64,000 nt of DNA from Escherichia phage A51.2: the sequence record ON286973; one strand, written 5' to 3'. The notes under the pieces were generated by a model. It saw only the letters and a list, made by a program, of their open reading frames with translations, was not told the origin of the DNA and ran no database searches. The position numbers and the translations under genes are program-made. This document shows positions 15,575-58,963 of the stretch, piece after piece; the first letter of the stretch is position 1, and the number at the start of each line of letters is the position of its first letter.

Positions 15575-15604
15575 TTGACAAAGCTTTGTTAAGTCGGTTA
15601 TAAT
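15575..15604 (+). promoter_or_regulatory. sigma70-like promoter (TTGACA-18-TATAAT)
   Basis: Consensus hexamers immediately after nrdG stop. Confidence 0.55.
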
Positions 15605-20018: not shown

Positions 20019-20252
20019 ATGAAAGTTAAATTTCTTACAGATTTAGGGTACCCTTCCTTGGTTGACTGTGTTGGTAAAATTGTGGAAGCAAAACGGCTAT
20101 CTGCAAACGAGAATGTTGTCCTGGTTAAAGGGAAGGATTTACTAGCTGCAGGTGCAGAGTCTGGCAGGATCTCTCCTGATTATATGTATTACCTATCTTT
20201 AAGTAATCTGCCAGAGCGAGGCGGTAAAGGCCTTGAAGTTGTGGAGGAGTGA
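20019..20252 (+). CDS. small acidic protein, VEVVEE-tail family member A
   Basis: RBS AGGAGG; MKVKFL...KGKDLLAAGA...LEVVEE. Confidence 0.5.
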   Translation: MKVKFLTDLGYPSLVDCVGKIVEAKRLSANENVVLVKGKDLLAAGAESGRISPDYMYYLSLSNLPERGGKGLEVVEE

Positions 20253-23395: not shown

Positions 23396-23677
23396 ATGAA
23401 AAAGATTAACAGTAGTGAAGTAGAGTTTAAACTTGTCGGAAAAGGCACTTACTGGGAAGTTCGTCAAAAGGTATATTTGTTCGGTCTTATTCCCTACTGG
23501 TCTAAATTCTACTGGGGAGCTAACGAGTTGGGAAGATACGCCACCAAATCAATGGCACTTATTGGTATAGCAGAGTACATTGCAGCCCGAGACAGGGTTG
23601 GAACCACTTATTACTACACTGCTGACGATATTCGTAACAGTGTTTACGTCCCACAACCACCTGATGGAGACCGTTGA
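23396..23677 (+). CDS. hypothetical protein
   Basis: ATG 23396 after AGAGGGAG. Confidence 0.4.
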   Translation: MKKINSSEVEFKLVGKGTYWEVRQKVYLFGLIPYWSKFYWGANELGRYATKSMALIGIAEYIAARDRVGTTYYYTADDIRNSVYVPQPPDGDR

Positions 23678-23901
23678 TGAAAGTTAAAGTTTTAGATTCA
23701 AGCTTCTATATTGGTCAGGAGCCTTTAGTAGGAAAAGTGTTTACTGCTGTCCCTAACGAAGATTACCCTGACCTTTTAAAAATAAAAGGAGCAGATCTTA
23801 TTGCCGCTGGTGCATCTCAGGAATGCTTTGACAGTCAGTGGACCTATAACTTTGCCCTAGGTGAGGATGTAGAGGTAGTGGAGGACGATCATGAAGGTTA
23901 A
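23677..23901 (+). CDS. small acidic protein, VEVVEE-tail family member B
   Basis: MKVKVLDS...KGADLIAAGA...DVEVVEDD. Confidence 0.5.
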   Translation: MKVKVLDSSFYIGQEPLVGKVFTAVPNEDYPDLLKIKGADLIAAGASQECFDSQWTYNFALGEDVEVVEDDHEG

Positions 23902-24145
23902 AATTCTTGATTCTAACGTCTACTTGGGACAATCCTTCCTGAATGGAAAGGTCGTTCCTGCGGTATACTTTGAAGGGTTGCCGTGGGATGATCCTGTGCG
24001 GCAACATCACAGTTATGTAGGCCACAACGTGGTGTTTATCTTGGGATCAGACCTGATCACCGCTGGTGCACCTGAATATTATTTCGGGGAAGAGTCCTAC
24101 TATGCCTTTGGGGTAGGGTCAGATGCAGATATTGTAGAGCTGTGA
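23891..24145 (+). CDS. small acidic protein, VEVVEE-tail family member C
   Basis: MKVKILDS...GSDLITAGA...DADIVEL; similar to B. Confidence 0.5.
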   Translation: MKVKILDSNVYLGQSFLNGKVVPAVYFEGLPWDDPVRQHHSYVGHNVVFILGSDLITAGAPEYYFGEESYYAFGVGSDADIVEL

Positions 24146-24157
24146 TGGGTAACCGTT

Positions 24158-24556
24158 GTGAAAAATAAACTGTTTAAAGTTACAATGAAAATTCGCGGGG
24201 CTTGGAGCGTAAAGCAAGGGCGTATTCCAGAATTTGAGAAAGACTTCTACGTAGTCTCCACCTCGGAGGAGGCTGCATGCTGGCAGGCTGGCTATGCCTA
24301 TGCAAGAACCTGGTACGAAGGATACCAGACTGGGGGCTATGACGGAGAAATTATCAGCAAGGGTGTAGAAGAAATTAATGTGTTGACAAGTGAAAAAGTT
24401 TTTGTTATAGTGCATCCAGATTCCAGAGTGAAGCATTACTGGAATGCCAGAACAAAAACTTGGACACCGTTTGCAGATTCTGCTACGCCACTTTTAAACC
24501 AGAAAGCTCTTGACTCTGCCCCAAGTTATGGGGTTGTTGAAGAAAAGCTAAACTGA
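24158..24556 (+). CDS. hypothetical protein, paralogue of 26368..26763
   Basis: Shares HP[DH]S..YW..K.WTP motif with the 26368 gene; GTG start. Confidence 0.45.
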   Translation: MKNKLFKVTMKIRGAWSVKQGRIPEFEKDFYVVSTSEEAACWQAGYAYARTWYEGYQTGGYDGEIISKGVEEINVLTSEKVFVIVHPDSRVKHYWNARTKTWTPFADSATPLLNQKALDSAPSYGVVEEKLN

Positions 24557-24573: not shown

Positions 24574-24864
24574 ATGATGGATTTAATTCTAAATATTGAT
24601 AACGCAGGAGAGTTTAAAGACGATGGTGTAACAAGCATGGACAAACCCTGCTCTGCTAAGGTTGACTCAAAATGGACCTACAAGTTTGACGGAGAGATCT
24701 TCGCAAATGATGAGAAGGTTGTAGATGCTGCAGCCATTTTAAACGCTCTAGGGTACGACCCTGTGAATTCTTTGATCAAGGATCCTGTTGAGTTTGCAGA
24801 GTATGTTCGAAAAATGGCAGATCTTGCTGTGGATATTTTAAAAACTATCGACAACAAGCTGTAA
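24574..24864 (+). CDS. hypothetical protein
   Basis: RBS GTGAGGTG. Confidence 0.45.
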   Translation: MMDLILNIDNAGEFKDDGVTSMDKPCSAKVDSKWTYKFDGEIFANDEKVVDAAAILNALGYDPVNSLIKDPVEFAEYVRKMADLAVDILKTIDNKL

Positions 24865-24870
24865 AAACTG

Positions 24871-24899
24871 TTGACACAACGCTTCAGATTTAGTATCAT
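24871..24899 (+). promoter_or_regulatory. sigma70-like promoter (TTGACA-17-TATCAT) upstream of hpf homologue
   Basis: Consensus -35 with 17-bp spacer. Confidence 0.55.
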
Positions 24900-24948
24900 T
24901 GTTTTCAAAGAGAGATAGTTATTCCCTCTTCCTTAAAAGGAACACGTT

Positions 24949-25269
24949 ATGCAAATTGAAATCACTGGCAACAATGTAGAAATCACAGAAGGTATGGTAT
25001 CTTTTATTTCCCGCAAAATGTCCAAGCTGGAGCGTTTACATCCCTCTGTTAACTATGCACGTGTGAGTGTAAAAGTTGAAAATGATCACCAGGAAGTTAT
25101 GGCGTTCATTTTTGACAATTCTGGAAAAGAAGTTATTGCCAAGGCTAAAGGCAGTGATGCTTACGAGGCAACTGACCGTATGGTAGATGTTGCAGCACGT
25201 CAGCTGGCTAAATGCGGTGGAAAGAAAGGTAAGGGGAAAGGCAAAGTAAAGATTGACTTTGGAGAATGA
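24949..25269 (+). CDS. hpf: ribosome hibernation promoting factor / RaiA (YfiA) family protein
   Basis: MQIEITGNNVEITEGM...KLE...VKVE...DAYEATDRMVDVAARQLAK aligns closely with E. coli HPF/YfiA; basic Lys/Gly C-tail. Confidence 0.85.
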   Translation: MQIEITGNNVEITEGMVSFISRKMSKLERLHPSVNYARVSVKVENDHQEVMAFIFDNSGKEVIAKAKGSDAYEATDRMVDVAARQLAKCGGKKGKGKGKVKIDFGE

Positions 25270-25406
25270 GGTGCTACAATGGGTGTGATTAAGAAATTAG
25301 TCCCAAATGTAGAGATTGCATGCTTTGAAATTATGTTTGCAATCGCAGTTGTAGTTAATGTGTTAGGTTACGGCTATTAATATCAAATAATTGAGGAGAC
25401 CTCTAA

Positions 25407-25676
25407 ATGAAAATTAAATTATTCCAAACTGAGCTGGCAGACAAAAATTGTGGACTGGTTGAAGGCATGATTGTTGAAGCACAACCAGTGGACTATATGA
25501 AGGTGGTTCGTGATGCCCTAGGTGAAGGTTTTGATCTGATGGAGCCAGCTCTGCGAGAAGATGTTATCGAGATGGCTAAAAAGCACACACCTGAAGGTTT
25601 GGTGGTGTTTGTTGCACCGGGTAACGGAGAAGAGTTGATTGTAACTCCTGATGTGTATGAGATTGTAGAGGAATAA
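25407..25676 (+). CDS. small acidic protein, VEVVEE-tail family member D
   Basis: RBS GAGGAG; MKIKLF...C-terminus VYEIVEE. Confidence 0.5.
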   Translation: MKIKLFQTELADKNCGLVEGMIVEAQPVDYMKVVRDALGEGFDLMEPALREDVIEMAKKHTPEGLVVFVAPGNGEELIVTPDVYEIVEE

Positions 25677-25767
25677 TCCTGCTTGGATTAGCATACTTCC
25701 TCGCTAAGGAAGATTTGTAATTATTTGTGGGAAAGGAGTCCCAATCTCTTACCAGAGGTGATACTAT

Positions 25768-26035: not shown

Positions 26036-26368
26036 ATGAAAGTACGCTTTATTGGTGAAACAATTCCTGTGCATCTCCGGTCGCCTGAGGATTCTGCAGA
26101 TCTTGCATCTCAAAAGGCGAGAGGTTATGATAAGAAAGTAACCTCAACCGATGTAGTGCTTGAGGCTACTAGTCTACCTGACCCTGCTGCATTCTTTAAT
26201 CATTATGGGTACTATTTCAGCAATCTGATGAATATCGGTGAGCTTGTGTTTATTAGTGGTGGAGAAATTGTTAGCAAGCTTGGCGGCGATCCGGATGTCT
26301 TTCATGAAACCTGTCCTTTTGCATTTGTGGTGGGTTCAGATGTGGAAGTTATTGAGGAGGTGCGGTAA
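26036..26368 (+). CDS. small acidic protein, VEVVEE-tail family member F
   Basis: MKVRFIGE...C-terminus SDVEVIEEVR; ATG 26036. Confidence 0.5.
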   Translation: MKVRFIGETIPVHLRSPEDSADLASQKARGYDKKVTSTDVVLEATSLPDPAAFFNHYGYYFSNLMNIGELVFISGGEIVSKLGGDPDVFHETCPFAFVVGSDVEVIEEVR

Positions 26369-26763
26369 TGGTAAGCCTATACCGTGTTGAGTATAGCTCA
26401 GATACTGTATACAACGTAAGAAGCAAAGATCGCAGCGACAGAGTGCAAGAAATGTATGTTCTTGCCGACAGTCCGTTATCTGCAGCGTTCAAGGCAGGGG
26501 CTCTTGCATCTCGTTGGAAATTTGAAGGCGGATCTTTCTATGAAGAAACCCTTGAAGATTCTGTTGTTATTTCTTCTGTAGAGGTTTCAGATGACTACGA
26601 AGGGAAAAAGTTCGTAATGCGGCACCCACACAGCAACATTGCGTACTACTGGGATGTTCTGAACAACGAGTGGACCCCAGATCTTCAGAAGGCTACTGTG
26701 CTAACACCGTTTTTGGCAGATAAGTTCCCACCAGAAGGTAATTTATCCGCACTGTTTCAGTAA
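26368..26763 (+). CDS. hypothetical protein, paralogue of 24158..24556
   Basis: RBS GGAGGTG; shares HPHS..YW..WTP motif. Confidence 0.5.
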   Translation: MVSLYRVEYSSDTVYNVRSKDRSDRVQEMYVLADSPLSAAFKAGALASRWKFEGGSFYEETLEDSVVISSVEVSDDYEGKKFVMRHPHSNIAYYWDVLNNEWTPDLQKATVLTPFLADKFPPEGNLSALFQ

Positions 26764-29161: not shown

Positions 29162-29166
29162 TGACA

Positions 29167-29193
29167 AAGAGGGGGGCTTAGGCCCCTCTTTTT
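29167..29193 (+). terminator. intrinsic terminator (AAGAGGGG...CCCCTCTT plus T tract)
   Basis: 8-bp stem followed by TTT. Confidence 0.7.
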
Positions 29194-43647: not shown

Positions 43648-43943
43648 AAATTTATCCTCTTTACTGGTTAGTGCGGTGTTGTTCACCTTGTAGGGTAATA
43701 ATACCATGATTAACCTTGTTGTCAACGACTATTTTAAATTATTTTTATGATAGAATCCACCTGCCGCCGCCCTGCCAGGTTAACCATCATTTTTTCGTAC
43801 TCTTCTTTATGTTCCAACGCTCCCGCCATGGCCTTTTCAACCAGGGCGATAGCCTCAGCGTCATTAATAGCTACATTTTCCAGGCTGGCCCCGCCAGGTT
43901 GCAGCGGTTAGCGCATCAGGTTAGAAAAATTTTTTGAAAAGTG

Positions 43944-43972
43944 TTGACAGCGGCCCCGCCAGGTGGCACAAT
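43944..43972 (+). promoter_or_regulatory. possible promoter (TTGACA-17-CACAAT) reading into GC-rich element
   Basis: Good -35, moderate -10; no ORF downstream. Confidence 0.3.
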
Positions 43973-44141
43973 ATACCTATCGAAAGGACGGCAGGCACCG
44001 GTGACGGGGGAGACAACCACCGGGGATGGGCGCTGCATAAAATGAGAACGGTTATCATTATCATTTAAAAATTTATGCAAAAAATCCTTGCTTTCTTTGT
44101 CCTGTGTGATACTATAATAACAAGCCGGGGCAACAGGGGCC

Positions 44142-44164
44142 GGGAGACAATCACCGGGCCTGCC
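44142..44164. repeat. 23-bp repeat GGGAGACAATCACCGGGCCTGCC (plus orientation); variant copy at 44008-44025
   Basis: Identical to reverse complement of 34517-34539; preceded by TATAAT at 44114. Confidence 0.85.
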
Positions 44165-44397
44165 CGTTATTCTGCAAACGAGAATGATTATCATTCAAAA
44201 TTCTAAATGAGAACTCCTCGCATTTAATAAATTTAATTAGCACGCTAATTACCCTCCGTAACAATTTCCTATAAAACAGTATCCCATAAAATATTCCCGT
44301 ATAGAAATTTTAAAAATCCATTTCTGAAAACGAAAAATCGATTTCGTCCCCAAAAATTTTAGGCCAAGAGCCGGAGCGATTTCCAGAAAATCCGATT

Positions 44398-44488
44398 CAG
44401 AAAACGAAAAACAGATCGAGTACTGAGAAATTTATCGAGAAAAATTTTCAGAAAATTCAATCTTTGAAACGAAAAACAGATCGAGTAC
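44398..44488. repeat. direct repeats: ACGAAAAACAGATCGAGTAC x2 at 65-bp period, degenerate third copy at 44326
   Basis: Perfect 20-bp copies at 44404-44423 and 44469-44488 in AT-rich non-coding DNA. Confidence 0.8.
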
Positions 44489-44799
44489 CTGGAAAGCTGC
44501 ACCGCAACTTCAAGATAGTGGTTGGATTATTGCTATAAAAGGTCAAGGGTAAGTGGAGGAAGTTCTAGTAGCGAGATGTAAGCATGTGCGGGAAATCTAT
44601 AATGGTGGTCTGGAATATGGTGCAAACGGTAGGATGAGTGATTCAGCTTGTCGCGCCTACTCTGAAAAATCCATTTTAGTTTTCGATCCATTTTCTGATT
44701 TTCTAAGGATTTTAAAATATCCTGGCAGGTAAAATATCAAAAGGAGGAAATCCATTTTAGAAATCCTCCTGATCTCTGGCAACCTGATAACTTAAAATA

Positions 44800-45132
44800 T
44801 CAGGCTCCCAGTGTGTTCTTTCCTTTGTACAACCTTAAGGGTATAGTTTTTGTAACAGTCCATCTCCCCAGCCCTTCCCAGTTCCAGTTGTAGGCATGGT
44901 ACCCGGTTACGCATGCACTGCTAGAGTGGTCATAGGCATAAGAGAACGCTATACGCACCAAATGGAACCAGTCTTTCCACGGTTGTGGTCCGTAAGCTTT
45001 TCTCCAACACCGACACAAACTAAATGTCTCAAGAATAGGCAGGATAACAAATCCATACACCGCCACCAGAATAGCCAGCGCAATGATTGTCAGGAATACA
45101 TACCCTGCAGTTGAAACGATGATCTCTGTCAT
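44800..45132 (-). CDS. membrane protein (N-terminal TM segments)
   Basis: VFLTIIALAILVAVYGFVILPIL. Confidence 0.45.
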   Translation of the reverse strand: MTEIIVSTAGYVFLTIIALAILVAVYGFVILPILETFSLCRCWRKAYGPQPWKDWFHLVRIAFSYAYDHSSSACVTGYHAYNWNWEGLGRWTVTKTIPLRLYKGKNTLGA

Positions 45133-45332
45133 TTGTCGTCCCCTTTCTTACGGATATAGATGTGAGAACCTGCCTGTATATAAATTTCTCGACCATCTTC
45201 TGCGAAGATGTGGAATACACGGTCACCTTCGTACTCAATACGAGATATCTTCATAATGGTCTTTCCACCTGGGATACGGATCTCGTCCCCCACAGCGATG
45301 TTCCATGCAGATTTAAGCTTAAACATCTGCAC
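45129..45332 (-). CDS. hypothetical protein
   Basis: 67-aa ORF. Confidence 0.4.
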   Translation of the reverse strand: MQMFKLKSAWNIAVGDEIRIPGGKTIMKISRIEYEGDRVFHIFAEDGREIYIQAGSHIYIRKKGDDK

Positions 45333-45564
45333 CCTCCTTTGGGAACTTGAACTCTGGCATAGCCATATACGCTACAACAGGGTTGTGATCAAAGTAGAAC
45401 TGACCGTTAATTATCCCGGTTTTGTCCACATAGTTACCAGATCCTGCAAGAACAACCTCGCAAGCTCCGAAATCTACATTGCCATCCTCATCAGCCATGG
45501 CTACGATATACTTTCCAAGAGGCATGTTTTTAACGCCGTCTACAAATGTCCACCCTTTGCTCAT
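45319..45564 (-). CDS. hypothetical protein
   Basis: 81-aa ORF. Confidence 0.4.
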   Translation of the reverse strand: MSKGWTFVDGVKNMPLGKYIVAMADEDGNVDFGACEVVLAGSGNYVDKTGIINGQFYFDHNPVVAYMAMPEFKFPKEGADV

Positions 45565-45584
45565 ACTTTATCTCCTGCGCTTTC

Positions 45585-45917
45585 TTAAGGTAACCAGTAA
45601 ACAATCTCGCCTTTCAGCTTCATGTCGTTTCCAACATAAATTTCCCAGCCATCCATCTTAGCAACTGTAGGCCCAAAGTCATCCGCACCCCTTACCTCTT
45701 TCCAGGCTCCGTAGTCAGGTTGCCAGATATAGAATCCACCTTCTTTGTCCCATGCTCCGTACACTACGTTTAACAGGTTTCCCATTGCAACAATGGTGGG
45801 CCGTGGGAATAATACATCTACAGATGCGCCACAATTTCGAGTATCTTTTAAGTTGCAATCCCAAAAGATGTCTGCCAGTGTGGCGGCGATAGCTTTACGT
45901 CTTTCCAATGTTACCAT
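45585..45917 (-). CDS. hypothetical protein
   Basis: 110-aa ORF. Confidence 0.45.
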   Translation of the reverse strand: MVTLERRKAIAATLADIFWDCNLKDTRNCGASVDVLFPRPTIVAMGNLLNVVYGAWDKEGGFYIWQPDYGAWKEVRGADDFGPTVAKMDGWEIYVGNDMKLKGEIVYWLP

Positions 45918-45927
45918 GGCACGATAC

Positions 45928-46119
45928 TCACTTGTTGTTAATAAGTTCTAAAACTTTCTGTCTTACTTTGTCAAGGTCTGTTGATTCAAAAACTGTGCGA
46001 TATCCCCAACTTTGCCCATAAGAGTGACTGCAATCCCCGTAGCACCATTGCTCAATTTGATAGTATTCAAGGAACGGGTGCTGTCTAACTATGATACCAT
46101 CCCGGTTAAAAATTACCAT
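45928..46119 (-). CDS. hypothetical protein
   Basis: 63-aa ORF. Confidence 0.4.
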   Translation of the reverse strand: MVIFNRDGIIVRQHPFLEYYQIEQWCYGDCSHSYGQSWGYRTVFESTDLDKVRQKVLELINNK

Positions 46120-46182
46120 AATACATCACTCTCTGTTAGTTTATGCATATATTATACACTGCAGTTTTCAGATGTCAATCTT

Positions 46183-46377
46183 TTACAGGTTACTCCAGTA
46201 TAATCGGCATTTACATTTTGGGCAATGAGGTTCTTTTATGTAATAACCATCAGTCTTTGGAACACTTTTTGGTGCAGTTTTAAGATTGTACCTGGTAAAA
46301 CATCGGAAGCAGGTTACCTCTCCAACCTGTTGATCGTTGATCCACTCACCAGAGTAAAGCTCTTTCTTGTTTCTCAT
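46183..46377 (-). CDS. small zinc-ribbon protein
   Basis: ATG 46377 after GGGAGAG; CFRC...CPKCKC. Confidence 0.4.
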   Translation of the reverse strand: MRNKKELYSGEWINDQQVGEVTCFRCFTRYNLKTAPKSVPKTDGYYIKEPHCPKCKCRLYWSNL

Positions 46378-46628
46378 AATTCTCTCCCAAATCCTCTGCA
46401 ATCTTATACCAAAATCTCCAGCCAGAAAGCACACGGGAACACTTTGAGGATTGAATCTTTACTTGGCTCGGAAGTTCTTTTTCCGTATGGTAGGTAGAAA
46501 TACCCTCCTGCAGATTCGAATATAGCTCCTTCGGTTGTATCTACCACAGCAAGAATTAAGATTTTAGTCTCCACAGTGCTCTCCTCTCTTAGTTGTTGTG
46601 GAGACTATATCACCTCAGAAGATGGTCG

Positions 46629-47087
46629 TCAACACTTTTTGTACTCTACTACAACCACATCAATATCTGTGGTTGCAAGATTAATTACATCTTCTACATG
46701 TTCCCACTTTAGACCGCCAATACCGCATCCAATTTTAGGAATGTAGAACGGCAATGACACACCTTTGAATACCTCGTTGACTCGCTCAAAACCTTTCATG
46801 ATTGAGAAGTATTCAGCATTGGGCCCTGGGTAGAACTGGGTATACAGGTTGATTCCATATACGACCCTGTTCTTGGCAAAATGCTCCCAACAAGAAAACA
46901 TACCCAGCTTGTCTAGATTACCATAAGCAGTTTCTTTGTCGGCTGCCAGTGCTTGAGGGAACTCACGGGCAATATCTTTCGCTATACCTGCACCCATTGT
47001 GTGAAAGCAGTTACAACCGTGGATCATGTGGCCTGACCCTTTCTTGAAAATGGAGATTAGATCTCCACCTACAGTATCAATAATCAC
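46629..47087 (-). CDS. macrodomain protein, TARG1/DarG-like (ADP-ribose hydrolase family)
   Basis: IHGCNCFHTMGAGIAKDI resembles TARG1-type AHCISEDCRMGAGIA motif; probable GTG start at 47087 after GGAAGAGGAG. Confidence 0.6.
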   Translation of the reverse strand: MIIDTVGGDLISIFKKGSGHMIHGCNCFHTMGAGIAKDIAREFPQALAADKETAYGNLDKLGMFSCWEHFAKNRVVYGINLYTQFYPGPNAEYFSIMKGFERVNEVFKGVSLPFYIPKIGCGIGGLKWEHVEDVINLATTDIDVVVVEYKKC

Positions 47088-47502
47088 GGTATGCCAGCTC
47101 CTCTTCCGCAATTTCAAAAAACTCAGTCCAGCACTGTGGCATATTGGAGTTGCCGAAGTGGCTTTCATAGTAAAGGTTCTCACCACTTGGAAGATAGAAA
47201 TCTGTTACCTCATAGAATCCACAATCGTCGCACTCACCTTCTTCAAACTTGGCCTCAACCTTAATACCGAGGAAGGTGAAAAGTTTATGGATATCTTCAG
47301 TTTCGAACTCCCAGTGAATGTTGTTTTCCGCATCGGTGTAGAACTGGATCAGCAGACCCTTGTCCAGTTTACCAAAATACTCTGTGAAGTAACTTCCTTC
47401 CCAGAAATCTTTATGACAAATAATATCCATGCGTTTGCCCATAATAATGGTGTGAGCGTTTTGGGCATCGTCACGAATCAGTTTTGGCATTTCATAGATC
47501 AT
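47077..47502 (-). CDS. hypothetical protein
   Basis: 141-aa ORF. Confidence 0.45.
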   Translation of the reverse strand: MIYEMPKLIRDDAQNAHTIIMGKRMDIICHKDFWEGSYFTEYFGKLDKGLLIQFYTDAENNIHWEFETEDIHKLFTFLGIKVEAKFEEGECDDCGFYEVTDFYLPSGENLYYESHFGNSNMPQCWTEFFEIAEEELAYRDY

Positions 47503-47570
47503 CTTAGTTCTCCTGGTTCAACAGGTGGTGGCGCTACAGGAAGATCATAAAACATAGCTATCACAGTCTC

Positions 47571-47768
47571 TTACACAGGAATTGCTTCAAACAGGCCGTT
47601 ATCTATACCGTCCTTCAGATAGAGATTATATTCTATGTCGGTATCTGTGTAAAGGGCAGCATCCAGCATTCTATCTGTGAGTCCATCCATTGGGTGGATA
47701 AACCACCACCCACGCCAGTCAAAGTAACAGCCTGGTGCATCTTCTCTTACACGGATTCGATAAATCAT
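47571..47768 (-). CDS. hypothetical protein
   Basis: 65-aa ORF. Confidence 0.4.
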   Translation of the reverse strand: MIYRIRVREDAPGCYFDWRGWWFIHPMDGLTDRMLDAALYTDTDIEYNLYLKDGIDNGLFEAIPV

Positions 47769-47864
47769 GGGCAGTGGCCTCCTGTTAGTTATACATCCCA
47801 GTTTTCTTCGTTCATCACGTCCTCCCGTTCTATGAAGTTATAATTGCACACCTTTCAATCTGTG

Positions 47865-48281
47865 TCAACAGAAAACTTCAACAAATTCTTCCACAGTTTT
47901 AATGTCGTGGGAAAAAGGTTTACGGCTATAACGGGCAATAGCACTATCAACCACCGCCCGGTACTCCAAATCTTCAGAATATTTCATGAAGCATTGTAGC
48001 GTCTCTGGACAGATAGCTAAATAGCTCCACCACCCCTCTTCAGATTGGTAGTCGAATCCCATACTATCCAACCATGAAGCATATACGCCTGCACCCTCAA
48101 GCCAGTGAGTATTTTCATCCAGAAACTTGTTAATAGACATGTGAGCTTCTAAGCATTTATCCAGCTCTTTTCCGTTAACCAGCCACGCACTGACCGTGGC
48201 GCATCCAAGGTCTACAGATTGAGTTGACAGGTTGTATTGGTCATAGTTCTCAGGCTTAACAATGATATCTTCTAATGTCAT
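47865..48281 (-). CDS. hypothetical protein
   Basis: 138-aa ORF. Confidence 0.45.
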   Translation of the reverse strand: MTLEDIIVKPENYDQYNLSTQSVDLGCATVSAWLVNGKELDKCLEAHMSINKFLDENTHWLEGAGVYASWLDSMGFDYQSEEGWWSYLAICPETLQCFMKYSEDLEYRAVVDSAIARYSRKPFSHDIKTVEEFVEVFC

Positions 48282-48343
48282 TTTTCAGATCTCCTTATAC
48301 AAAAATGCCCCACCCTTTCGGGCAGGGCTATGTTAACTAGATG

Positions 48344-49570
48344 TTAAAAAGGGATGTCATCATCAAAGGTATACTGTGCTGGATTCTGATCCATTGGGTC
48401 ATCTTCCTCATCATTTACAGGAGGAGCGTCTACAGTGTTTTGCTGTGGAGCTGCTTCCTGTTTGGCAGCCTGGGGTTCTTGATAGTCAGTTGACCCAGCA
48501 CCGTTCTTGATCCAATCGTACAACGGTTCAGCCAGATTAGTCAAGACATCTTTTGCTTCTGCAGTAATTGCCGCTGCAAAATCATCAACTTTCGTTTTCT
48601 TGTCAATACGGCGACAAGCGTTCAACACCGCATTACCGACACTGGCACCTACTTCATCTTCAGTTCGGTTGGTGGCTTGAGCATACTCTTTCTTAAGCTC
48701 AATGGTGACTACGTGCAGTGTTTTAGCCACGCCCAGTGGGTCGTCTACCTTAAACCCGCGATCCAGGATGATCTGCAACGCATTGATGCTATGCCCCGTT
48801 TCCACACCGATAGGGTCGTAAGAGGATTTACGCTTGCCACCGGAGCCTTGAGTGCCGTTCTCTGCCTTAGGGGGATAGGCTTTGAAACCGCTGATAATGT
48901 TTCCGGTGTCTTTGTCAACAATGGCTGCAACACGACCACCTACCACCAGGTCTTTAAGCTGCTCATCAGTTACAACCATAGCACCTTCGCCAATCTTGTG
49001 GTCATTAACAGTAACCACGTTGCCAACAATCTGAGTCACATCGCCATAGATGCGTAAAACGTCCTGATTGGCATTCTGCTGAGGTTTCTGCTTCTGGCCT
49101 TGTGATTGTGCACCTTGTTGCTGTTTTTGCTGCTGAGTCGCTGCTGGAGCCTCTCCTGCACCCAGCTTGACCATCTTAGCCAGTGAGCCTTTGTAATAGG
49201 TCTTACCGTTATGCTCGTTTGCCTTCAAAGGGATATTTACGATCCATCCCGGCGTTACGGTTTCCCACTTGTCATCAATTTTAACAGAGACAGAGTCTTG
49301 ATGACCAGGTTTAAGCAGCTTATCACCCATGCTGATCCAAACTTCTTCACCACCTTGAAGCAGGTTATCAGAGGAATCCAGTTCAGAAATCAGTAAAGAG
49401 ATGGTGTGGCTGGATTCAATTTTCTTACCTTGCCACACAGTGGTTTTAATACCTGTTGTAGGATCAGCACCTTTGATAGGCTTGATGCTGACACGTTTAA
49501 TCATGCCGTGAGCCAGTAAAACAGTTTCACGCGGATTCATCGGGTTAGCGAATTGTTGAATAACGCTCAT
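48344..49570 (-). CDS. putative ssDNA-binding-type replication protein with host-SSB-like C-terminal tail
   Basis: 408 aa; Gln-rich linker; C-terminus ends DDDIPF (E. coli SSB ends DFDDDIPF); N-terminal fold not recognised. Confidence 0.55.
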   Translation of the reverse strand: MSVIQQFANPMNPRETVLLAHGMIKRVSIKPIKGADPTTGIKTTVWQGKKIESSHTISLLISELDSSDNLLQGGEEVWISMGDKLLKPGHQDSVSVKIDDKWETVTPGWIVNIPLKANEHNGKTYYKGSLAKMVKLGAGEAPAATQQQKQQQGAQSQGQKQKPQQNANQDVLRIYGDVTQIVGNVVTVNDHKIGEGAMVVTDEQLKDLVVGGRVAAIVDKDTGNIISGFKAYPPKAENGTQGSGGKRKSSYDPIGVETGHSINALQIILDRGFKVDDPLGVAKTLHVVTIELKKEYAQATNRTEDEVGASVGNAVLNACRRIDKKTKVDDFAAAITAEAKDVLTNLAEPLYDWIKNGAGSTDYQEPQAAKQEAAPQQNTVDAPPVNDEEDDPMDQNPAQYTFDDDIPF

Positions 49571-49935
49571 TATTTGTCTCCTTGTTCTTCGTTAGTGTTT
49601 GCCGTGTGTGCAAACCCTGCTTGAATTAATTTGTCCTGAACTTGAGCCAACAGCCCCATTGCAAAACTTGTGGTCCCAGAGAGGGCCATCAGCATATCTC
49701 GTTGTTGAGCTACCCAACCTAAGGCATAGTCCAAACGACGATATTTTTCTTCTTCACGCAGAGCTTGAAATAATTGTTCAGCCTCTGGTTGTTGTGTGAG
49801 CTCCTGAAGTCTTCCCATGAAAGAAGAAAGCACTAGCAGAAGAGACACTTGATCTTTACTTAACCCTAAGAAAAATTCTTGAGGTTGTTCTTGCTCGTTC
49901 ATCGCAACCGACGCTTGATCGTTCATTTGTTCCAT
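49570..49935 (-). CDS. hypothetical protein
   Basis: 121-aa ORF abutting the SSB-tail gene. Confidence 0.45.
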   Translation of the reverse strand: MEQMNDQASVAMNEQEQPQEFFLGLSKDQVSLLLVLSSFMGRLQELTQQPEAEQLFQALREEEKYRRLDYALGWVAQQRDMLMALSGTTSFAMGLLAQVQDKLIQAGFAHTANTNEEQGDK

Positions 49936-50018
49936 TATGGAATCTCCGATTTTATTTGAACAACATAGAAGGAGACACTATTTTAGCATCCCCTTCTGCA
50001 AATTACAATAGGTATTTG

Positions 50019-50264
50019 TTAGCCAATCACTTCGAAAGTTCCCCAATTCCCGTCCAGCAGGCAGGTGATCGGATCCCCATCGTCGTCAAAGATTTCAAAG
50101 TTTTCAGCATCCAGGATGTGGCCCTCAAACACAATACTTTCGTCGCCACCACCAGAAATAACAGCGTATTCCTTACCTTGAGTCAAGTTTTGACACCCTT
50201 TGCCACCAAAACCTACTTCAACACAACGTACTTTCTGTCCTGCGCGAGCAACTACTTCAGTCAT
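50019..50264 (-). CDS. hypothetical protein
   Basis: 81-aa ORF. Confidence 0.4.
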   Translation of the reverse strand: MTEVVARAGQKVRCVEVGFGGKGCQNLTQGKEYAVISGGGDESIVFEGHILDAENFEIFDDDGDPITCLLDGNWGTFEVIG

Positions 50265-50281
50265 CTTAAGGTCTCCTGATA

Positions 50282-50602
50282 TTAATCGTCAAGTTCAAAA
50301 TAGATTTTAACAGCTTCATCAAAGATTGGAATCCCGATGTTGTTAATAAGCTGCCAAACTACCATATCTTTACCTGGGTCGGGGAGAATGTCAACCTTTC
50401 TCCATGCGCTGTATATCCAGTTCGGACCACCTTCTGCACTAACTGGCAGATTTTCACCAGCCTCCTGCAGATACTTATACAGCAAAAGATATTCTGGATA
50501 CTCTAGAACACTGTCCTCTGTAGTATATAGCAGTTCACGGTATACTTTTAAGAACCCTGCGGGGGTGATGTTTTCAGTCTTCATTTGCTGCTTCTCCTGC
50601 AT
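50282..50602 (-). CDS. hypothetical protein
   Basis: 106-aa ORF, start uncertain. Confidence 0.4.
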   Translation of the reverse strand: MQEKQQMKTENITPAGFLKVYRELLYTTEDSVLEYPEYLLLYKYLQEAGENLPVSAEGGPNWIYSAWRKVDILPDPGKDMVVWQLINNIGIPIFDEAVKIYFELDD

Positions 50603-50966
50603 TCATCAGATCTGCCATAGCGTCACCCACGAAGAGAACAACCACATCGTTGACAGCGTCAGCATCATCTTTGTTGACGTTGCTGAATTTAGGACACACA
50701 GCAATGATCATATAGACACCGTTACCAACTTGAACTGTCCGTGTGGTGCACATCATGGCGGTATTTGTGCCTTCTTTGAAGGCGAAGCCTTGAAGACGCT
50801 CCTCTAAAGTGTTACCGGTAGATTTCAGAAGCGCCAGCTCGTCCAAGGCATAGATGATATCTCCGGAAGTTAGTGTTGCCTTGCCATCAGACACCATAAT
50901 CACTCCATCAGCACCATCAAGCTTAGAGGCTTCAAAGATATCGATATCCCAAATATTTTTCATCAC
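50574..50966 (-). CDS. hypothetical acidic protein
   Basis: 130-aa ORF. Confidence 0.4.
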   Translation of the reverse strand: MMKNIWDIDIFEASKLDGADGVIMVSDGKATLTSGDIIYALDELALLKSTGNTLEERLQGFAFKEGTNTAMMCTTRTVQVGNGVYMIIAVCPKFSNVNKDDADAVNDVVVLFVGDAMADLMNAGEAANED

Positions 50967-51235
50967 GCTTCCTCATCATCTAAGTAATCATCAAGAGAGG
51001 TGAAGATTTCACCGAAGTATTCTAAGATTTCTAGCTCACGTGTGGTGCAGCAAACATAATCGCCTTGGTCGTCCTTAATAGTGGCCTCTTTACCCAGAAT
51101 ATCTACTTCAAGTTCATCGTTCAACAGGACGGCCCCTGTGTAAACTTTGTCAGCTGTGCAGTCCCGAAAAGCAGAGTCCTTCTCCAGATAGTCTGGCTTA
51201 ACCTTGGCTTTAATTCGTTGATATTGTTTGGTCAT
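50963..51235 (-). CDS. hypothetical protein, paralogue of 51299..51553
   Basis: ATG 51235 after AAAGGGGA; shares KP.Y.E.D.AF.DCT and KDD.GD...CT motifs. Confidence 0.4.
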   Translation of the reverse strand: MTKQYQRIKAKVKPDYLEKDSAFRDCTADKVYTGAVLLNDELEVDILGKEATIKDDQGDYVCCTTRELEILEYFGEIFTSLDDYLDDEEA

Positions 51236-51298
51236 TGCTGTGGTCCCCTTTCGTTTTGATAGGGCCATTATAGTAGGCCCTATGACTGTTGTCAAGCA

Positions 51299-51553
51299 TT
51301 AATGTTCAGGTTTTACAAAAACTACTTCATTAACAGTGCACCAGACAGAGTCTCCTTCATCATCTTTAAAGGTAAGGCACTGTGCTGAGTTTTCCAACTC
51401 ATCAAGCTCTTCCTGTGATAGAGGAGCTCCTTCTTCCAGAAGGGCTTTTACCAAAGGGTTCTCACAAAACTCTGCTTCATAAATTGCACCGATTGTGCAA
51501 TCTTTAAAAGCTCGGTCATTTTCAACGCATTCTGGCTTCAGAGTAATTTTCAT
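51299..51553 (-). CDS. hypothetical protein, paralogue of 50963..51235
   Basis: 84-aa ORF, RBS AAGGAGA. Confidence 0.45.
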   Translation of the reverse strand: MKITLKPECVENDRAFKDCTIGAIYEAEFCENPLVKALLEEGAPLSQEELDELENSAQCLTFKDDEGDSVWCTVNEVVFVKPEH

Positions 51554-51629
51554 CTTAGCGGTCTCCTTAAGTGTTAAACAATCAACGCTCTGTTTGTGTG
51601 AAGCATCTTATATCTAATCTTACTTCCTG

Positions 51630-52028
51630 TCAACGACTATTTTCGATCATCCACCAAGGATCAAGATAAGTTTGTTGACTTTTTGCCCACTGACAAACTT
51701 CATTGTACATCTGAACCTCGTTGTCCGTCAATTCACGAATAGGTTCATCTATACCCTCATTTTTATGGTAATCCCATTCTGCGTCTATCTCCCACAGCCA
51801 TGACTTGTTGTCACCACGCTTACGCACACAAAAATCACCAGGGCGGCCTGCCAGTGCATTTAAGAACTCGTTCTCCGCTCGCTCCTGGAGAATACTAAGG
51901 AGCAAAACGTTGGAGCATGACCGTAAAATATGCTTCAGCTCACAATCATCAATCTCAACTTCAATACGTTGTTTGACTGTGTGGGTACCTTTTACTAACA
52001 TCCTGCCTCCTCTAAACGAACTCTGCAA
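51630..52028 (-). CDS. hypothetical protein
   Basis: 132-aa ORF. Confidence 0.45.
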   Translation of the reverse strand: MQSSFRGGRMLVKGTHTVKQRIEVEIDDCELKHILRSCSNVLLLSILQERAENEFLNALAGRPGDFCVRKRGDNKSWLWEIDAEWDYHKNEGIDEPIRELTDNEVQMYNEVCQWAKSQQTYLDPWWMIENSR

Positions 52029-52206
52029 GAGTTGTGTTGTTCACTGCACCGCAGTAAATGGAGTATCCCAGCCCATTAGAGTGCAGAAACCACGGCGTGC
52101 CGAAATTATCTTTCACGTAGACATCACCGTTGTTTGTAAAGGGCCAATATTCTTCACCAAGGGTAAAATACCTATTCATACCTTCAGCAAGATACTTTAC
52201 TTTCAT
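52012..52206 (-). CDS. hypothetical protein, three-member paralogue family
   Basis: Shares (F/Y)F..G..Y......KD..G..W(Y/F)...... pattern with next two genes. Confidence 0.4.
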   Translation of the reverse strand: MKVKYLAEGMNRYFTLGEEYWPFTNNGDVYVKDNFGTPWFLHSNGLGYSIYCGAVNNTTLAEFV

Positions 52207-52430
52207 AGGTCCTCTTCAACAACTACAAACTTGGCAAGCAAAGTGGTTCCGTAGATATGATACTCACCGTTTGCCAGGTGAGAGATATACCAGGCAACCC
52301 CTTCCTCGTCTTTAATCATTTTGTTTGCACGAGCTTTATCGTAATAAACCTCGTAGGTCTTTCCTTCTTTAAAGAATGACAGGTCTGTCATCTTTTCTTC
52401 TACAAAGGTAGCTTTAACCAAAGTCGTCAT
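52203..52430 (-). CDS. hypothetical protein, three-member paralogue family
   Basis: FFKEGKTYEV...IKDEEGVAWYI. Confidence 0.4.
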   Translation of the reverse strand: MTTLVKATFVEEKMTDLSFFKEGKTYEVYYDKARANKMIKDEEGVAWYISHLANGEYHIYGTTLLAKFVVVEEDL

Positions 52431-52711
52431 TGATCGGTCTCCTTCTTGTTAAGTCTGAATACTGCAATAATAGCATTCCCAAGGTGCAGTGTCAAGTCAT
52501 TTCCAAGATACCACAGCATCCCACGGTCATCTTTAATGAAAGGGTAACAATCTGGTGCCTTCCAGACATTGTACACTTTCCCAACCTGAAAGAAATCAGG
52601 CCCTGTTGGGATTTTGGTGCCAGGCCACACTTGAGATACCTGAACACACTCCACCTGCATAATAACAGGAATGGTCATGGATGTAAATGTTTTTGTTGGC
52701 TCTACTACCAT
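52427..52711 (-). CDS. hypothetical protein, three-member paralogue family
   Basis: ATG 52711 after AAGAGGAG; FFQVGKVYNV...IKDDRGMLWYL. Confidence 0.45.
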   Translation of the reverse strand: MVVEPTKTFTSMTIPVIMQVECVQVSQVWPGTKIPTGPDFFQVGKVYNVWKAPDCYPFIKDDRGMLWYLGNDLTLHLGNAIIAVFRLNKKETDQ

Positions 52712-52760
52712 AAAAGTCTCCTCTTTGCTCAACAGCACCTCCCTGTGCTGATAGTTTACA

Positions 52761-55538: not shown

Positions 55539-55596
55539 ATACAGTTCTCCTTAAAGGGGAGGCGGTTGTACTACCCCTCCCACTCTTTGTTAAACA

Positions 55597-57675: not shown

Positions 57676-58459
57676 TAATTCTGCTCCTTACTACAGGCTC
57701 GTTTGCTAGGAATACGGCTTTTGCCCAGCCACGTGGTGTGAGGCTTCGAATCATCTTCGTTCTTGCACTCTTTCCACCCAGCTTGGCGTGTTGCATGGAA
57801 TACCCGCTAACCGCGTCAACTATTTGCGGGACAGGTTTTGTGGCTGGGATTATAAATCCATTACCTATCCAGCCGCAAGTTATTTTTGGATAGGCATCAC
57901 GTGGAGCTATAAATTCAGGAAACCATGGGTTTACATCATCTTCCGGTAAATACCCGCCATAATCCGAAGGGTGAAAACGGTAATCAGGTTTGCGCCACAG
58001 TGTGGACATAACACCCACAGGATTCTCTACATGCCACGGGCAATCGTAAATCTCTCCCAGCTCTTCCGCAACCCGAGCATCCTTTACAGCATTAATTTGG
58101 ATCATGGGGTCCTTAGCCAGTTTTTTCTTAAAATGTGCAGCACCTGATACCGCTAAATGCGTGCACGGAGGAAATGCAAGAATAAAATCTGGAGCCGGAT
58201 ACATGCAAAAAGTTTCCTGAGGGAACCACGGGTCAATCCAATAGTCCACATAGTGAATGTTGGGATGATCGGTGATCACCTCTGCATAACTGCCGTGATC
58301 AGCGCCTTCTGCATTAAAGCACAGGCACAGGTACCCAGCTTTTGCCCAGTCAATGACTGCACCACCAGACCCGTCAAATAGACTCCACACAACACCTTTG
58401 TGGTAGTGTTCTTTGTAGATAAATTTCAATTTACTGTCTCCTAATGCAAAAAGCCCCAC
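57665..58459 (-). CDS. minimal C5-cytosine methyltransferase-like protein
   Basis: 264 aa with motif I LFDGSGG, motif IV FPPC, motif VI-like VENP in canonical order; no obvious target-recognition domain. Confidence 0.5.
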   Translation of the reverse strand: MGLFALGDSKLKFIYKEHYHKGVVWSLFDGSGGAVIDWAKAGYLCLCFNAEGADHGSYAEVITDHPNIHYVDYWIDPWFPQETFCMYPAPDFILAFPPCTHLAVSGAAHFKKKLAKDPMIQINAVKDARVAEELGEIYDCPWHVENPVGVMSTLWRKPDYRFHPSDYGGYLPEDDVNPWFPEFIAPRDAYPKITCGWIGNGFIIPATKPVPQIVDAVSGYSMQHAKLGGKSARTKMIRSLTPRGWAKAVFLANEPVVRSRINGK

Positions 58460-58480
58460 CCTTTCGGGCAGGGCCTAGTG

Positions 58481-58963
58481 TTAAACCCGGATACCTATTG
58501 TATACTCGGTGGATACCAATGTCAAATCTAAATTTAAAATTTCTTGCATCTCATAATATGCGTCCAGGGTTAGATACATTTCCCCATCCTTTTCTGCATA
58601 CTTGTCCAAGTGCTTAAGGCATTTCGGATAACTATCGAGTGCAGCTTTCAGACACTCAAATTCTGTGCTGTTAATGAATCCTTCCATCTTAGCTACCCGT
58701 TCTGGAGTAACGATAGCACTGTAGTGAGATTTAGCTTCCTGAATGCAATGGGTCCAAGCATCAACTTTCTCTTCGAAAAGCCCGAAGAACTTCTTTTTGG
58801 TGAGCTTCAGATTCTTTAAGTGCTTAAGCACTCGGTTGCCGATCACAGCCACATCACGAAACTTAAGGATCACTTTGTCGATATCCTCGCGGCCTATTTT
58901 CACAAAGCAAGCCTCGCACATTTCAGGAGTGGCATAGCCTACTTTCCACATAAAATCTGACAT
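58481..58963 (-). CDS. hypothetical protein
   Basis: 160-aa ORF. Confidence 0.45.
   Translation of the reverse strand: MSDFMWKVGYATPEMCEACFVKIGREDIDKVILKFRDVAVIGNRVLKHLKNLKLTKKKFFGLFEEKVDAWTHCIQEAKSHYSAIVTPERVAKMEGFINSTEFECLKAALDSYPKCLKHLDKYAEKDGEMYLTLDAYYEMQEILNLDLTLVSTEYTIGIRV

What the first reader, a model, noticed from the sequence alone, without database searches (positions are those of the whole stretch)
24871..25269. Phage-encoded ribosome hibernation factor (HPF/RaiA) homologue with its own promoter
The 106-aa protein aligns along its length with E. coli HPF/YfiA (MQIEITGNNVEITE..., ...ARQLAK). It is driven by a consensus TTGACA-17-TATCAT promoter and sits inside the small-gene cluster. 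A phage copy could silence or protect host ribosomes during takeover.
Basis: partly seen in the sequence, partly recalled or inferred. Interest (0 to 1): 0.7.

Follow-up and report, generated by a model that had tools for sequence, protein, structure and literature searches.

The report
Known rV5-phage HPF homologue, early promoter
The gene is a real, conserved copy of the bacterial ribosome hibernation factor HPF carried by rV5-like E. coli phages, but it and its promoter are already annotated and published, and the one published ribosome-binding test was negative though inconclusive.

Summary
Window 24949-25269 (+) encodes a 106-aa protein. It passes the curated cut-offs of Pfam Ribosomal_S30AE and NCBIfam TIGR00741. 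It aligns over residues 1-90 with E. coli HPF at 42-43% identity. Its predicted core superposes on solved HPF structures at about 1 Å.

The TTGACA-17-TATCAT promoter at 24871-24899 is real in the comparative sense. Both hexamers and the spacing are kept in 8 Vequintavirus genomes while the spacer sequence drifts.

None of this is new. The window is an rV5-like Vequintavirus, 100% identical here to phage slur16. The gene is annotated in more than 100 records, and the promoter is annotated as P144 in the rV5 RefSeq record. Mizuno et al. 2019 described the rV5 HPF and tested it. It was absent from 70S/100S ribosomes washed in 500 mM NH4Cl, and 100S levels did not change.

What I add:
- Strong purifying selection (median dN/dS about 0.05).
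- Two deeper syntenic phage lineages (64% and 57% identity), one of them without its own promoter.
- Loss of several HPF ribosome-contact residues (K80, K89, Y30, H55, T53), while R83, K87, D75 and K26 are kept.
- A variable, disordered, basic C-terminal tail.

Family membership is secure. Ribosome silencing or protection is inferred, not shown.

The parts
24871..24899 (+). Sigma-70-type promoter: -35 TTGACA (24871-24876), 17-nt spacer, -10 TATCAT (24894-24899).
   Evidence: Read in the sequence and found by the promoter scan at 11/12. The pattern is enriched 11 against 0.47 expected in the window. Hexamers and spacing are conserved with a variable spacer in 8 Vequintavirus genomes. Annotated as 'Sigma70-type promoter; P144' in rV5 NC_011041. 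The L002 lineage has TTGACA-17-AATTAT preceded by TG. The L005 lineage has no promoter.
24900..24948 (+). 5' leader with a short hairpin (about 24909-24930) and the Shine-Dalgarno sequence AAGGA (24937-24941).
   Evidence: Sequence. The hairpin AAAGAGGG...CCCTCTT recurs in most Vequintavirus genomes, but its folding energy is not distinguishable from shuffles (z=-0.5). The transcription start is inferred, not mapped.
24949..25218 (+). [quoted passage not shown]
   Evidence: PF02482 over residues 3-89. TIGR00741 and PRK10470 over residues 1-90/92. E. coli HPF aligns over 1-90. AlphaFold2 pLDDT is about 90 or higher over most of residues 1-90. Foldseek gives rmsd 0.9-1.0 Å to V. cholerae and E. 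coli HPF.
25219..25266 (+). C-terminal Lys/Gly-rich tail, residues 91-106 (GKKGKGKGKVKIDFGE). It is predicted disordered and has no counterpart in host HPF.
   Evidence: pLDDT below 50 for residues 91-106. The tail is net basic (+3 to +4) in all three phage lineages, but its sequence is not conserved: pN 0.46-0.63 against 0.21-0.25 in the core.
25267..25269 (+). Stop codon TGA.

Best explanation
This is the known hpf-like gene of rV5-like (Vequintavirus) E. coli phages. It is a diverged but functional descendant of the short enterobacterial hibernation promoting factor.

**Shown here**
- It belongs to the HPF/YfiA (S30AE) family and is predicted to keep that fold.
- It is under strong purifying selection.
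- It has been inherited at the same position in at least three rV5-like lineages.
- In most of them it is the first gene behind a conserved sigma-70 consensus promoter inside a run of small genes.

**Inferred**
- Host RNA polymerase transcribes it early in infection.
- The protein binds vacant host 30S/70S ribosomes in the tRNA/mRNA channel between the head and body of the 30S subunit, as HPF does. It would use the retained contacts: R84 (E. coli R83, the m4Cm1402 contact), K88 (K87), D76 (D75), K26 and R29.
- Because K80, K89, Y30, H55 and T53 are replaced, and basic charge has moved to a flexible Lys/Gly tail, binding is probably more electrostatic, more salt-sensitive and more easily reversed than that of host HPF.
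- Its most likely use is to take over or modulate host ribosome hibernation in slow-growing or starving hosts. It would keep idle ribosomes intact and reusable for phage translation, rather than simply shutting translation off.
- No phage RMF was found, so any 100S formation would need host RMF.
For: **Family and fold**
- PF02482 scores 56.7 bits against a cut-off of 23.7. TIGR00741 scores 56.8 against 40.9.
- The top PDB sequence hits are E. coli HPF 2rql, 4v8h and 6h4n at E about 1e-15.
- The top 37 Foldseek hits are all HPF/YfiA/pY chains, the best at rmsd 0.9-1.0 Å.

**Closest cellular relatives**
- These are the 95-aa Enterobacterales HPFs, at 40-45% identity.

**Selection and inheritance**
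- Median pairwise dN/dS is 0.05 among 8 Vequintavirus genes, with dS up to 0.7.
- Between lineages, synonymous sites are saturated while core pN is 0.21-0.25.
- The gene sits at the same syntenic position in two divergent lineages at 64% and 57% identity.

**Promoter**
-.

**Retained and lost contact residues**
- Mapped through the alignments onto the contact list in bioRxiv 10.1101/2025.10.07.680626.

**Charge**
- The pI is 9.0-9.7, against 6.5 for HPF and 6.2 for YfiA. The tail is net +3 to +4 in every lineage.

**RMF**
- No RMF homologue was found in 50,697 phage records.
Against: - Mizuno et al. 2019 expressed the rV5 protein in E. coli. They found its peptides in the crude extract but none in 70S/100S fractions, and no change in 100S (PMC6375957).
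- Two of the five alpha-2 basic residues called strictly conserved in Gram-negative HPFs are lost in all phage lineages (K80 to V/T/I; K89 to G/S/N). So are Y30, H55 and T53.
- The score is below the equivalog cut-offs for both HPF (65 against 125) and RaiA (23 against 158).
- Early timing is inferred from promoter type only. No transcriptome, proteome or mutant data were found.
- The L005 lineage lacks its own promoter.
Confidence: 0.6

Rival explanations
1. Anti-hibernation competitor. The phage protein occupies the HPF/YfiA site, or its basic tail reaches the neighbouring RMF site as the YfiA tail does. It binds weakly enough to be displaced by initiation. This would prevent or dissolve host 100S/YfiA-70S hibernation, so that ribosomes of starved cells stay available for phage mRNAs.
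For: - Mizuno et al. proposed this idea.
- Several high-affinity contact residues are lost.
- There is a 16-residue flexible tail at the position from which the YfiA tail runs towards the RMF site.
- No phage RMF was found.
- The protein was absent from salt-washed ribosomes.
Against: - No change in the small 100S peak was seen on expression.
- The tail sequence is not conserved between lineages.
- There is no direct evidence for weak binding or for competition.
- The tail is basic, whereas the YfiA tail is net acidic.
Confidence: 0.2
2. Neofunctionalised HPF fold. The protein no longer acts on the ribosome decoding channel and uses its basic surface for another RNA or protein target.
For: - The ribosome co-purification was negative.
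- K80, K89, Y30, H55 and T53 are replaced in every phage lineage, as are the family-wide R/K17 and E/D51.
- The pI has shifted from 6.5 to more than 9.
- The score is below both equivalog cut-offs.
Against: - R83, described as the single essential arginine at m4Cm1402, is kept, as are K87, D75, K26 and R29.
- The predicted core superposes on ribosome-bound HPF at 1.0 Å.
- HPF-type factors may not survive a 500 mM NH4Cl wash (my own recollection; not checked here), so the negative result is weak.
Confidence: 0.13
3. Host shut-off factor. Made early, it blocks A/P sites on free ribosomes to suppress host protein synthesis during takeover.
For: - It has a consensus early-type promoter.
- The family mechanism blocks the tRNA and mRNA sites.
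Against: - HPF-type binding does not discriminate between host and phage mRNAs.
- Expression in E. coli to OD600 of 1 left the ribosome sedimentation profiles and 70S stability unchanged.
- The L005 lineage has no dedicated promoter.
Confidence: 0.06
4. Recently captured, selectively neutral host gene (a passenger).
For: Mizuno et al. suggested a relatively recent transfer, on the basis of high conservation with cellular HPF.
Against: - dN/dS is about 0.05.
- Identity to any cellular HPF is only 40-45%.
- The gene is present at the same locus in lineages whose synonymous sites are saturated.
Confidence: 0.01

Closest known systems
E. coli / Enterobacterales short HPF (YhbH, 95 aa; PDB 2rql, 6h4n, 4v8h)
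   Same: - Best match by sequence: 42-43% identity over residues 1-90.
- Same predicted fold at 1.0 Å rmsd.
- Same N-terminal MQ(I/L)xITGNNVEITE motif.
- Keeps R83, K87, D75, K26 and, in the rV5 type, K91 and E60.
   Different: - Below the equivalog cut-off: 65 against 125 bits.
- K80, K89, Y30, H55 and T53 are replaced.
- One extra residue in the beta3-beta4 loop.
- A basic tail 8-11 residues longer.
- pI 9 against 6.5.
- Driven by a phage sigma-70 promoter rather than sitting in the host rpoN operon (the operon context is established knowledge).
- No effect on 100S was seen.
E. coli YfiA/RaiA (protein Y, 113 aa)
   Same: Same family and fold. It also has a C-terminal extension beyond helix alpha-2. 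In YfiA this extension runs towards the RMF site and is linked to 70S-type rather than 100S-type hibernation.
   Different: - Much weaker similarity: 22.8 bits against a 158 cut-off, E=0.02 in PDB.
- The YfiA tail is net -3 and ends in acidic residues; the phage tail is net +4.
rV5 gp139 / ORF144 (YP_002003641, ABI79209) and PHROG 12469
   Same: The same gene: 97-98% identical, with the same promoter P144 and the same neighbours.
   Different: The window allele has one extra Asn (GNNVEITE, as in E. coli HPF), R22 instead of H22 and V34 instead of A34.
Other phage S30AE proteins (PHROG 8990; Cronobacter jumbo phage GAP32 HPF)
   Same: Phage-borne members of the same family.
   Different: Only a distant relationship: E=1e-7 to PHROG 8990 against 1e-69 to PHROG 12469. 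These were independent acquisitions according to Mizuno et al..

Membership tests
HPF/YfiA family (Pfam PF02482 Ribosomal_S30AE; NCBIfam TIGR00741) | Significant match above the curated family cut-off. | tested here: met
   PF02482 scores 56.7 bits against 23.7. TIGR00741 scores 56.8 against 40.9.
HPF/YfiA family (Pfam PF02482 Ribosomal_S30AE; NCBIfam TIGR00741) | [quoted passage not shown] | tested here: met
   The AlphaFold2 model has E2-8 H14-30 E34-44 E47-56 E61-68 H71-90, with core pLDDT about 90 or higher over most of it. Foldseek gives rmsd 0.9-1.0 Å to 4hei and 6h4n_x. This is a prediction, not a solved structure.
HPF/YfiA family (Pfam PF02482 Ribosomal_S30AE; NCBIfam TIGR00741) | Conserved alpha-2 residues R83 and K87, plus D75, that contact 16S rRNA. 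| tested here: met
   R84, K88 and D76 are invariant in all phage lineages.
HPF/YfiA family (Pfam PF02482 Ribosomal_S30AE; NCBIfam TIGR00741) | The remaining 'strictly conserved' basic residues of alpha-2 (K80, K89, K91). | tested here: not met
   K80 is replaced by V/T/I and K89 by G/S/N in all three lineages. K91 is kept only in the rV5 type.
HPF/YfiA family (Pfam PF02482 Ribosomal_S30AE; NCBIfam TIGR00741) | Binds the 30S/70S decoding channel and blocks the tRNA/mRNA sites. | not testable with these tools
   The published test was negative but inconclusive: a 500 mM NH4Cl wash and cells at OD600 of 1.
Short HPF equivalog (NCBIfam NF007780 / PRK10470) | Score above the equivalog cut-off. | tested here: not met
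   65.2 bits against a cut-off of 125.
Short HPF equivalog (NCBIfam NF007780 / PRK10470) | Converts RMF-induced 90S dimers to 100S. | not testable with these tools
   Mizuno et al. saw no discernible effect on 100S. No phage RMF was found.
RaiA/YfiA equivalog (NCBIfam NF007654 / PRK10324) | Score above the equivalog cut-off. | tested here: not met
   22.8 bits against a cut-off of 158. The RefSeq product name 'RaiA' is therefore a family-level label only.
Long HPF (N-terminal domain plus C-terminal dimerisation domain, about 180-190 aa) | A C-terminal dimerisation domain. | tested here: not met
   The protein is 106 aa. Residues 91-106 are predicted disordered, and no second domain is present.

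The most novel reading that the evidence does not exclude
The phage protein is not a hibernation factor in the host sense. It is a remodelled, fast-exchanging HPF mimic. Its basic flexible tail and reduced helix contacts would let it displace or exclude host HPF, YfiA and RMF, or shield the 16S decoding centre and 3' end from nucleases. That would keep ribosomes of starved or defence-arrested cells usable for phage translation. This would be a viral 'anti-hibernation' or ribosome-guarding strategy, conserved across a clade wider than the known Vequintavirus genus.
Probability: 0.2. Interest if true: 0.65.

Novelty: already known. Interest (0 to 1): 0.25.

Why it matters
Phage-encoded ribosome-associated proteins are a recognised but poorly understood class. 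The rV5 HPF is the best-known cultivated example. What it does in infection remains unknown after one inconclusive experiment.

The residue-level remodelling, the deep conservation and the strong purifying selection shown here indicate that the gene is used. They also turn a vague idea into specific tests: low-salt binding, complementation of Δhpf and ΔraiA strains, tail deletion, and V81K/G90K reversions.

As a discovery, however, the finding adds nothing. The gene, the promoter and the hypothesis are all already on record.

Tried and rejected
- **5' leader hairpin as a regulatory structure.** Folding energies do not differ from shuffles in three of the four lineages tested (z about -0.5; z=-2.2 for L002), and the predicted structures differ between lineages. 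Rejected as evidence.
- **Terminator-like hairpin at 25696-25712 as the end of a three-gene operon.** It degenerates in several Vequintavirus genomes and is absent from the divergent lineages. The unit more likely runs on to the strong terminator near 29166-29191.
- **Downstream 89-aa ORF (25407-25676) as a second HPF-like gene**, as some GenBank records annotate it. It has no Pfam hit, no similarity to the HPF, and falls in a PHROG of unknown function. Rejected.
- **HPF paralogues in the small-gene cluster.** None were found by all-against-all BLASTP.
- **Phage RMF partner.** None in the phage collection.
- **Rfam families and tRNAs in the window.** None.
- **Link to defence systems.** No PADLOC hit.
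- **P0122** (1160 aa, 8 matched stretches) is a PPC-repeat protein, so the hit is spurious.
- **Scan of IMG/VR by peptide pattern.** It gave only 3 loci, two of them rV5-like, and was uninformative on wider distribution.
- **Literature searches for later functional work on phage HPF.** Nothing was found beyond Mizuno 2019 and Mathieu 2020.
- **PMC3377384**, my guess for Polikanov 2012, is not held.

Full report
**1. What is in the sequence**

The + strand carries an ORF at 24949-25269 (ATG to TGA, 106 aa). An AAGGA Shine-Dalgarno sequence at 24937-24941 precedes it.

In the 84-nt gap after the upstream gene (stop at 24862-24864) lies TTGACA (24871-24876), a 17-nt spacer, then TATCAT (24894-24899). 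The coordinates in the finding are therefore exact: promoter start to stop codon.

**2. Is it more than chance?**

The protein matches:
- Pfam Ribosomal_S30AE (PF02482) at E=4.2e-15, 56.7 bits against a gathering score of 23.7.
- NCBIfam TIGR00741, the HPF/YfiA family, at 56.8 bits against 40.9.
- E. coli HPF chains 2rql, 4v8h and 6h4n at E about 1e-15, over residues 1-90.

The AlphaFold2 model was built from a 35-sequence alignment. Its mean pLDDT is 84, about 90 or higher over most of residues 1-90 and below 50 for 91-106. [quoted passage not shown]

The 37 best Foldseek hits in the PDB are all HPF/YfiA/pY chains. The best are V. cholerae HPF (rmsd 0.9 Å) and ribosome-bound E. coli HPF 6h4n_x (rmsd 1.0 Å, 43% identity).

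The promoter pattern TTGACA-N16-18-TAYNAT occurs 11 times in the window against 0.47 expected. In 8 Vequintavirus genomes the two hexamers (TATCAT or TATTAT) and the 17-nt spacing are kept while the spacer sequence changes. That pattern is what a functional promoter should show.

One correction applies. The match to HPF stops at residue 90, and the last 16 residues have no counterpart. The protein is clearly closer to HPF (65.2 bits) than to RaiA/YfiA (22.8 bits).

**3. Where the window comes from, and what is already known**

The region is 100% identical to Escherichia phages slur16 and slur12. It is 90-100% identical to 118 records of rV5-like phages, genus Vequintavirus.

The gene carries many names in these records: 'sigma 54 modulation factor', 'ribosome hibernation promoting factor', 'ribosome hibernation factor' and 'ribosome-associated translation inhibitor RaiA'.

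In the rV5 RefSeq record it is ORF144/gp139. The promoter is annotated just upstream as 'Sigma70-type promoter; P144'.

Mizuno et al. 2019 (PMC6375957) listed the rV5, FV3, JES-2013, FFH2 and typing-phage-14 proteins as virus-encoded HPFs. They discussed possible roles and tested the rV5 protein. Expressed from pBAD24 in E. coli NM522, its peptides were found in the crude extract. None were found in the 70S/100S fractions, and 100S formation did not change.

The ribosomes in that test had been pelleted through 500 mM NH4Cl, from cells harvested at OD600 of 1. The authors themselves list growth phase, salt stripping or genuine loss of binding as possible explanations.

Mathieu et al. 2020 (PMC6969025) again noted hpf in five new rV5 phages, 'as already described'. 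I found no later functional work. The finding is therefore already known, including its promoter and the functional idea.

**4. What I could add: evolution**

Close copies in the isolate-phage collection are confined to Vequintavirus, all at 93% amino-acid identity or more.

The large protein databases hold two further forms: P0004 (103 aa, 64% identity) and P0055 (104 aa, 57%). Both lie on phage-sized or phage-like contigs, in the same position of a syntenic run of small genes. The surrounding DNA is only about 70-76% identical to Vequintavirus, over a third of its length. The gene is therefore older than the known genus.

Its nearest cellular relatives are the 95-aa HPFs of Enterobacterales, at 40-45% identity.

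Within Vequintavirus the median pairwise dN/dS is 0.05, with dS up to 0.7. Between lineages synonymous sites are saturated. Non-synonymous divergence is 0.21-0.25 in the core but 0.46-0.63 in the tail.

The gene is maintained by selection and is not a recent passenger.

The 'own promoter' is a feature of the rV5 type. In weaker form (TTGACA-17-AATTAT preceded by TG) it also occurs in the P0004 lineage. The P0055 lineage has only a 33-nt gap and no promoter.

**5. What I could add: the ribosome-binding surface**

A 2025 preprint gives cryo-EM contact maps for Gram-negative HPF and YfiA (bioRxiv 10.1101/2025.10.07.680626). In E. coli numbering, the key residues are:
- K80, R83, K87, K89, K91 and K93 on helix alpha-2.
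- D75 and Y30.
- K26 and Q29.
- The H55/E60 pair, which binds the C-terminus of uS9.
- T53 and H62, at m2G966.

I mapped these through the HMMER and MAFFT alignments.

| Status in the phage proteins | Residues (E. coli numbering) |
|---|---|
| Kept in all lineages | R83 (the m4Cm1402 contact), K87, D75, K26; a basic residue at 29 |
| Kept only in the rV5 type | K91, E60 |
| Replaced in all three lineages | K80 to V/T/I; K89 to G/S/N; Y30 to L/L/I; H55 to F; T53 to F/R/R |
| Family-wide positions also replaced | R/K17 to V; E/D51 to M/S |

All phage forms are basic, with pI 9.0-9.7 against 6.5 for HPF and 6.2 for YfiA. All carry a tail 8-11 residues longer than that of HPF. The tail is predicted disordered, differs in sequence between lineages, and is always net +3 to +4. 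The YfiA tail, by contrast, is net -3.

The core scaffold and part of the rRNA-contact set are preserved, but the interface is remodelled. Positive charge has moved from fixed helix positions to a flexible tail.

**6. Most likely mechanism**

Shown here: family membership, predicted fold, selection, conserved locus and conserved promoter.

Inferred:
- Host RNA polymerase transcribes the gene early, as the first gene behind P144 in a polycistronic run of small genes. That run probably extends to the strong terminator near 29166-29191.
- The protein binds vacant host ribosomes in the HPF site.
- With fewer fixed contacts and a polybasic tail, it is probably more salt-labile and more exchangeable than host HPF. 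This would also explain the negative result after the 500 mM NH4Cl wash.
- No phage RMF exists in the collection, so 100S formation would depend on host RMF.

I consider modulation or take-over of hibernation the most likely benefit: keeping idle ribosomes intact and reusable in slow-growing hosts. An explicit anti-hibernation role is the main rival. Loss of ribosome binding with a new target is a serious alternative, given the lost contacts and the negative experiment. Host shut-off is less likely, and a neutral passenger is excluded by the selection data.

**7. Membership**

The protein is a member of the HPF/YfiA family by curated cut-offs and predicted fold. It is not an equivalog of HPF (65 against 125 bits) or of RaiA (23 against 158 bits), and it is not a long HPF.

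The RefSeq name 'RaiA' and the older 'sigma 54 modulation factor' are family-level or legacy labels. The latter reflects the position of host hpf in the rpoN operon, which is established knowledge. Neither name is evidence of function.

**8. Verdict**

This is a correct observation of a gene that is already annotated and published, together with its promoter. The functional reading is plausible but unproven. It is somewhat weakened by the published negative test and by the loss of several contact residues.

Novelty is 'already known' and interest is low. The open question of what the protein does in infection is real but modest, and the tests listed under next steps can now address it.

Noticed in passing
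window 20019-20252, 23677-23901, 23891-24145, 26036-26368; and 24185-24556, 26368-26763: The small-gene cluster around the HPF gene contains two paralogous families of unknown function. BLASTP gives 30-40% identity, with E from 1e-3 down to 2e-14. None has a Pfam hit.
   Followed up: partly
window, whole: + strand sites at 15575, 16967, 20579, 24871; - strand sites at 43698-58497: Consensus sigma-70 promoters (TTGACA-N16-18-TAYNAT) occur 11 times against 0.47 expected. All + strand sites lie in the first 25 kb and all - strand sites lie after 43 kb. This suggests two diverging blocks of genes that depend on host RNA polymerase.
   Followed up: no
window 25407-25676 (+), 89-aa ORF: Several GenBank records (nom, navn, SophiaRose, JLBYU08, VB-EcoM-WM) label this downstream ORF 'sigma 54 modulation factor'. 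It has no Pfam hit, no similarity to the HPF, and belongs to PHROG 11868 of unknown function. The label looks like a propagated annotation error.
   Followed up: yes
window 24949-25269, as annotated in OR062528, MT884009 and MT884011: In some records the HPF gene itself is annotated 'ATP-dependent protease La Type I', which the sequence does not support.
   Followed up: partly
L002-L004 and L005-L007 (Logan assemblies ERR6997038, ERR4623478, SRR25571739, DRR842907, SRR22580011, SRR23924973): These are two rV5-like phage lineages that are absent from the isolate-phage collection. Gene order is the same, but DNA identity is only about 70-76% over a third of the region. Their HPFs are 64% and 57% identical to the window protein. 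They may be undescribed relatives of Vequintavirus.
   Followed up: partly
GenBank MG0656xx 'Campylobacter phage' records (e.g. L013): Eighteen UNVERIFIED records are labelled as Campylobacter jejuni phages but are 90-99.9% identical to E. coli Vequintavirus across this region. The host label is doubtful.
   Followed up: no
window 24970-24975 (codons 8-9) and codon 22: The window allele (slur16 type) reads GNNVEITE, as E. coli HPF does, and has R22. rV5 and the other nine phage genes compared read GNVEITE; the other Vequintavirus genes have H22, while the two divergent lineages have R at that position. This is a one-codon indel polymorphism in the beta1-alpha1 loop, which contacts rRNA in host HPFs.
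   Followed up: partly
window 24909-24930; L001 8962-8982: A hairpin in the 5' leader (AAAGAGGG-loop-CCCTCTT) recurs in most Vequintavirus genomes between the -10 box and the Shine-Dalgarno sequence. Its energy is not better than shuffles, and it is weaker in the window allele.
   Followed up: partly
window 25253-25280 (+): A second promoter-like site (TTGACT-16-TACAAT with an upstream TG) overlaps the end of the HPF gene and the start codon of the 33-aa hydrophobic ORF at 25279-25380. It is not annotated in rV5. It may be chance.
   Followed up: no
L016 (IMGVR_UViG_7000000274_000116), 928-2647: A 104-aa HPF homologue at 28% identity lies directly after a 451-aa ORF on a 'viral' contig. The arrangement resembles the bacterial rpoN-hpf pair, so the contig may include host DNA.
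   Followed up: no
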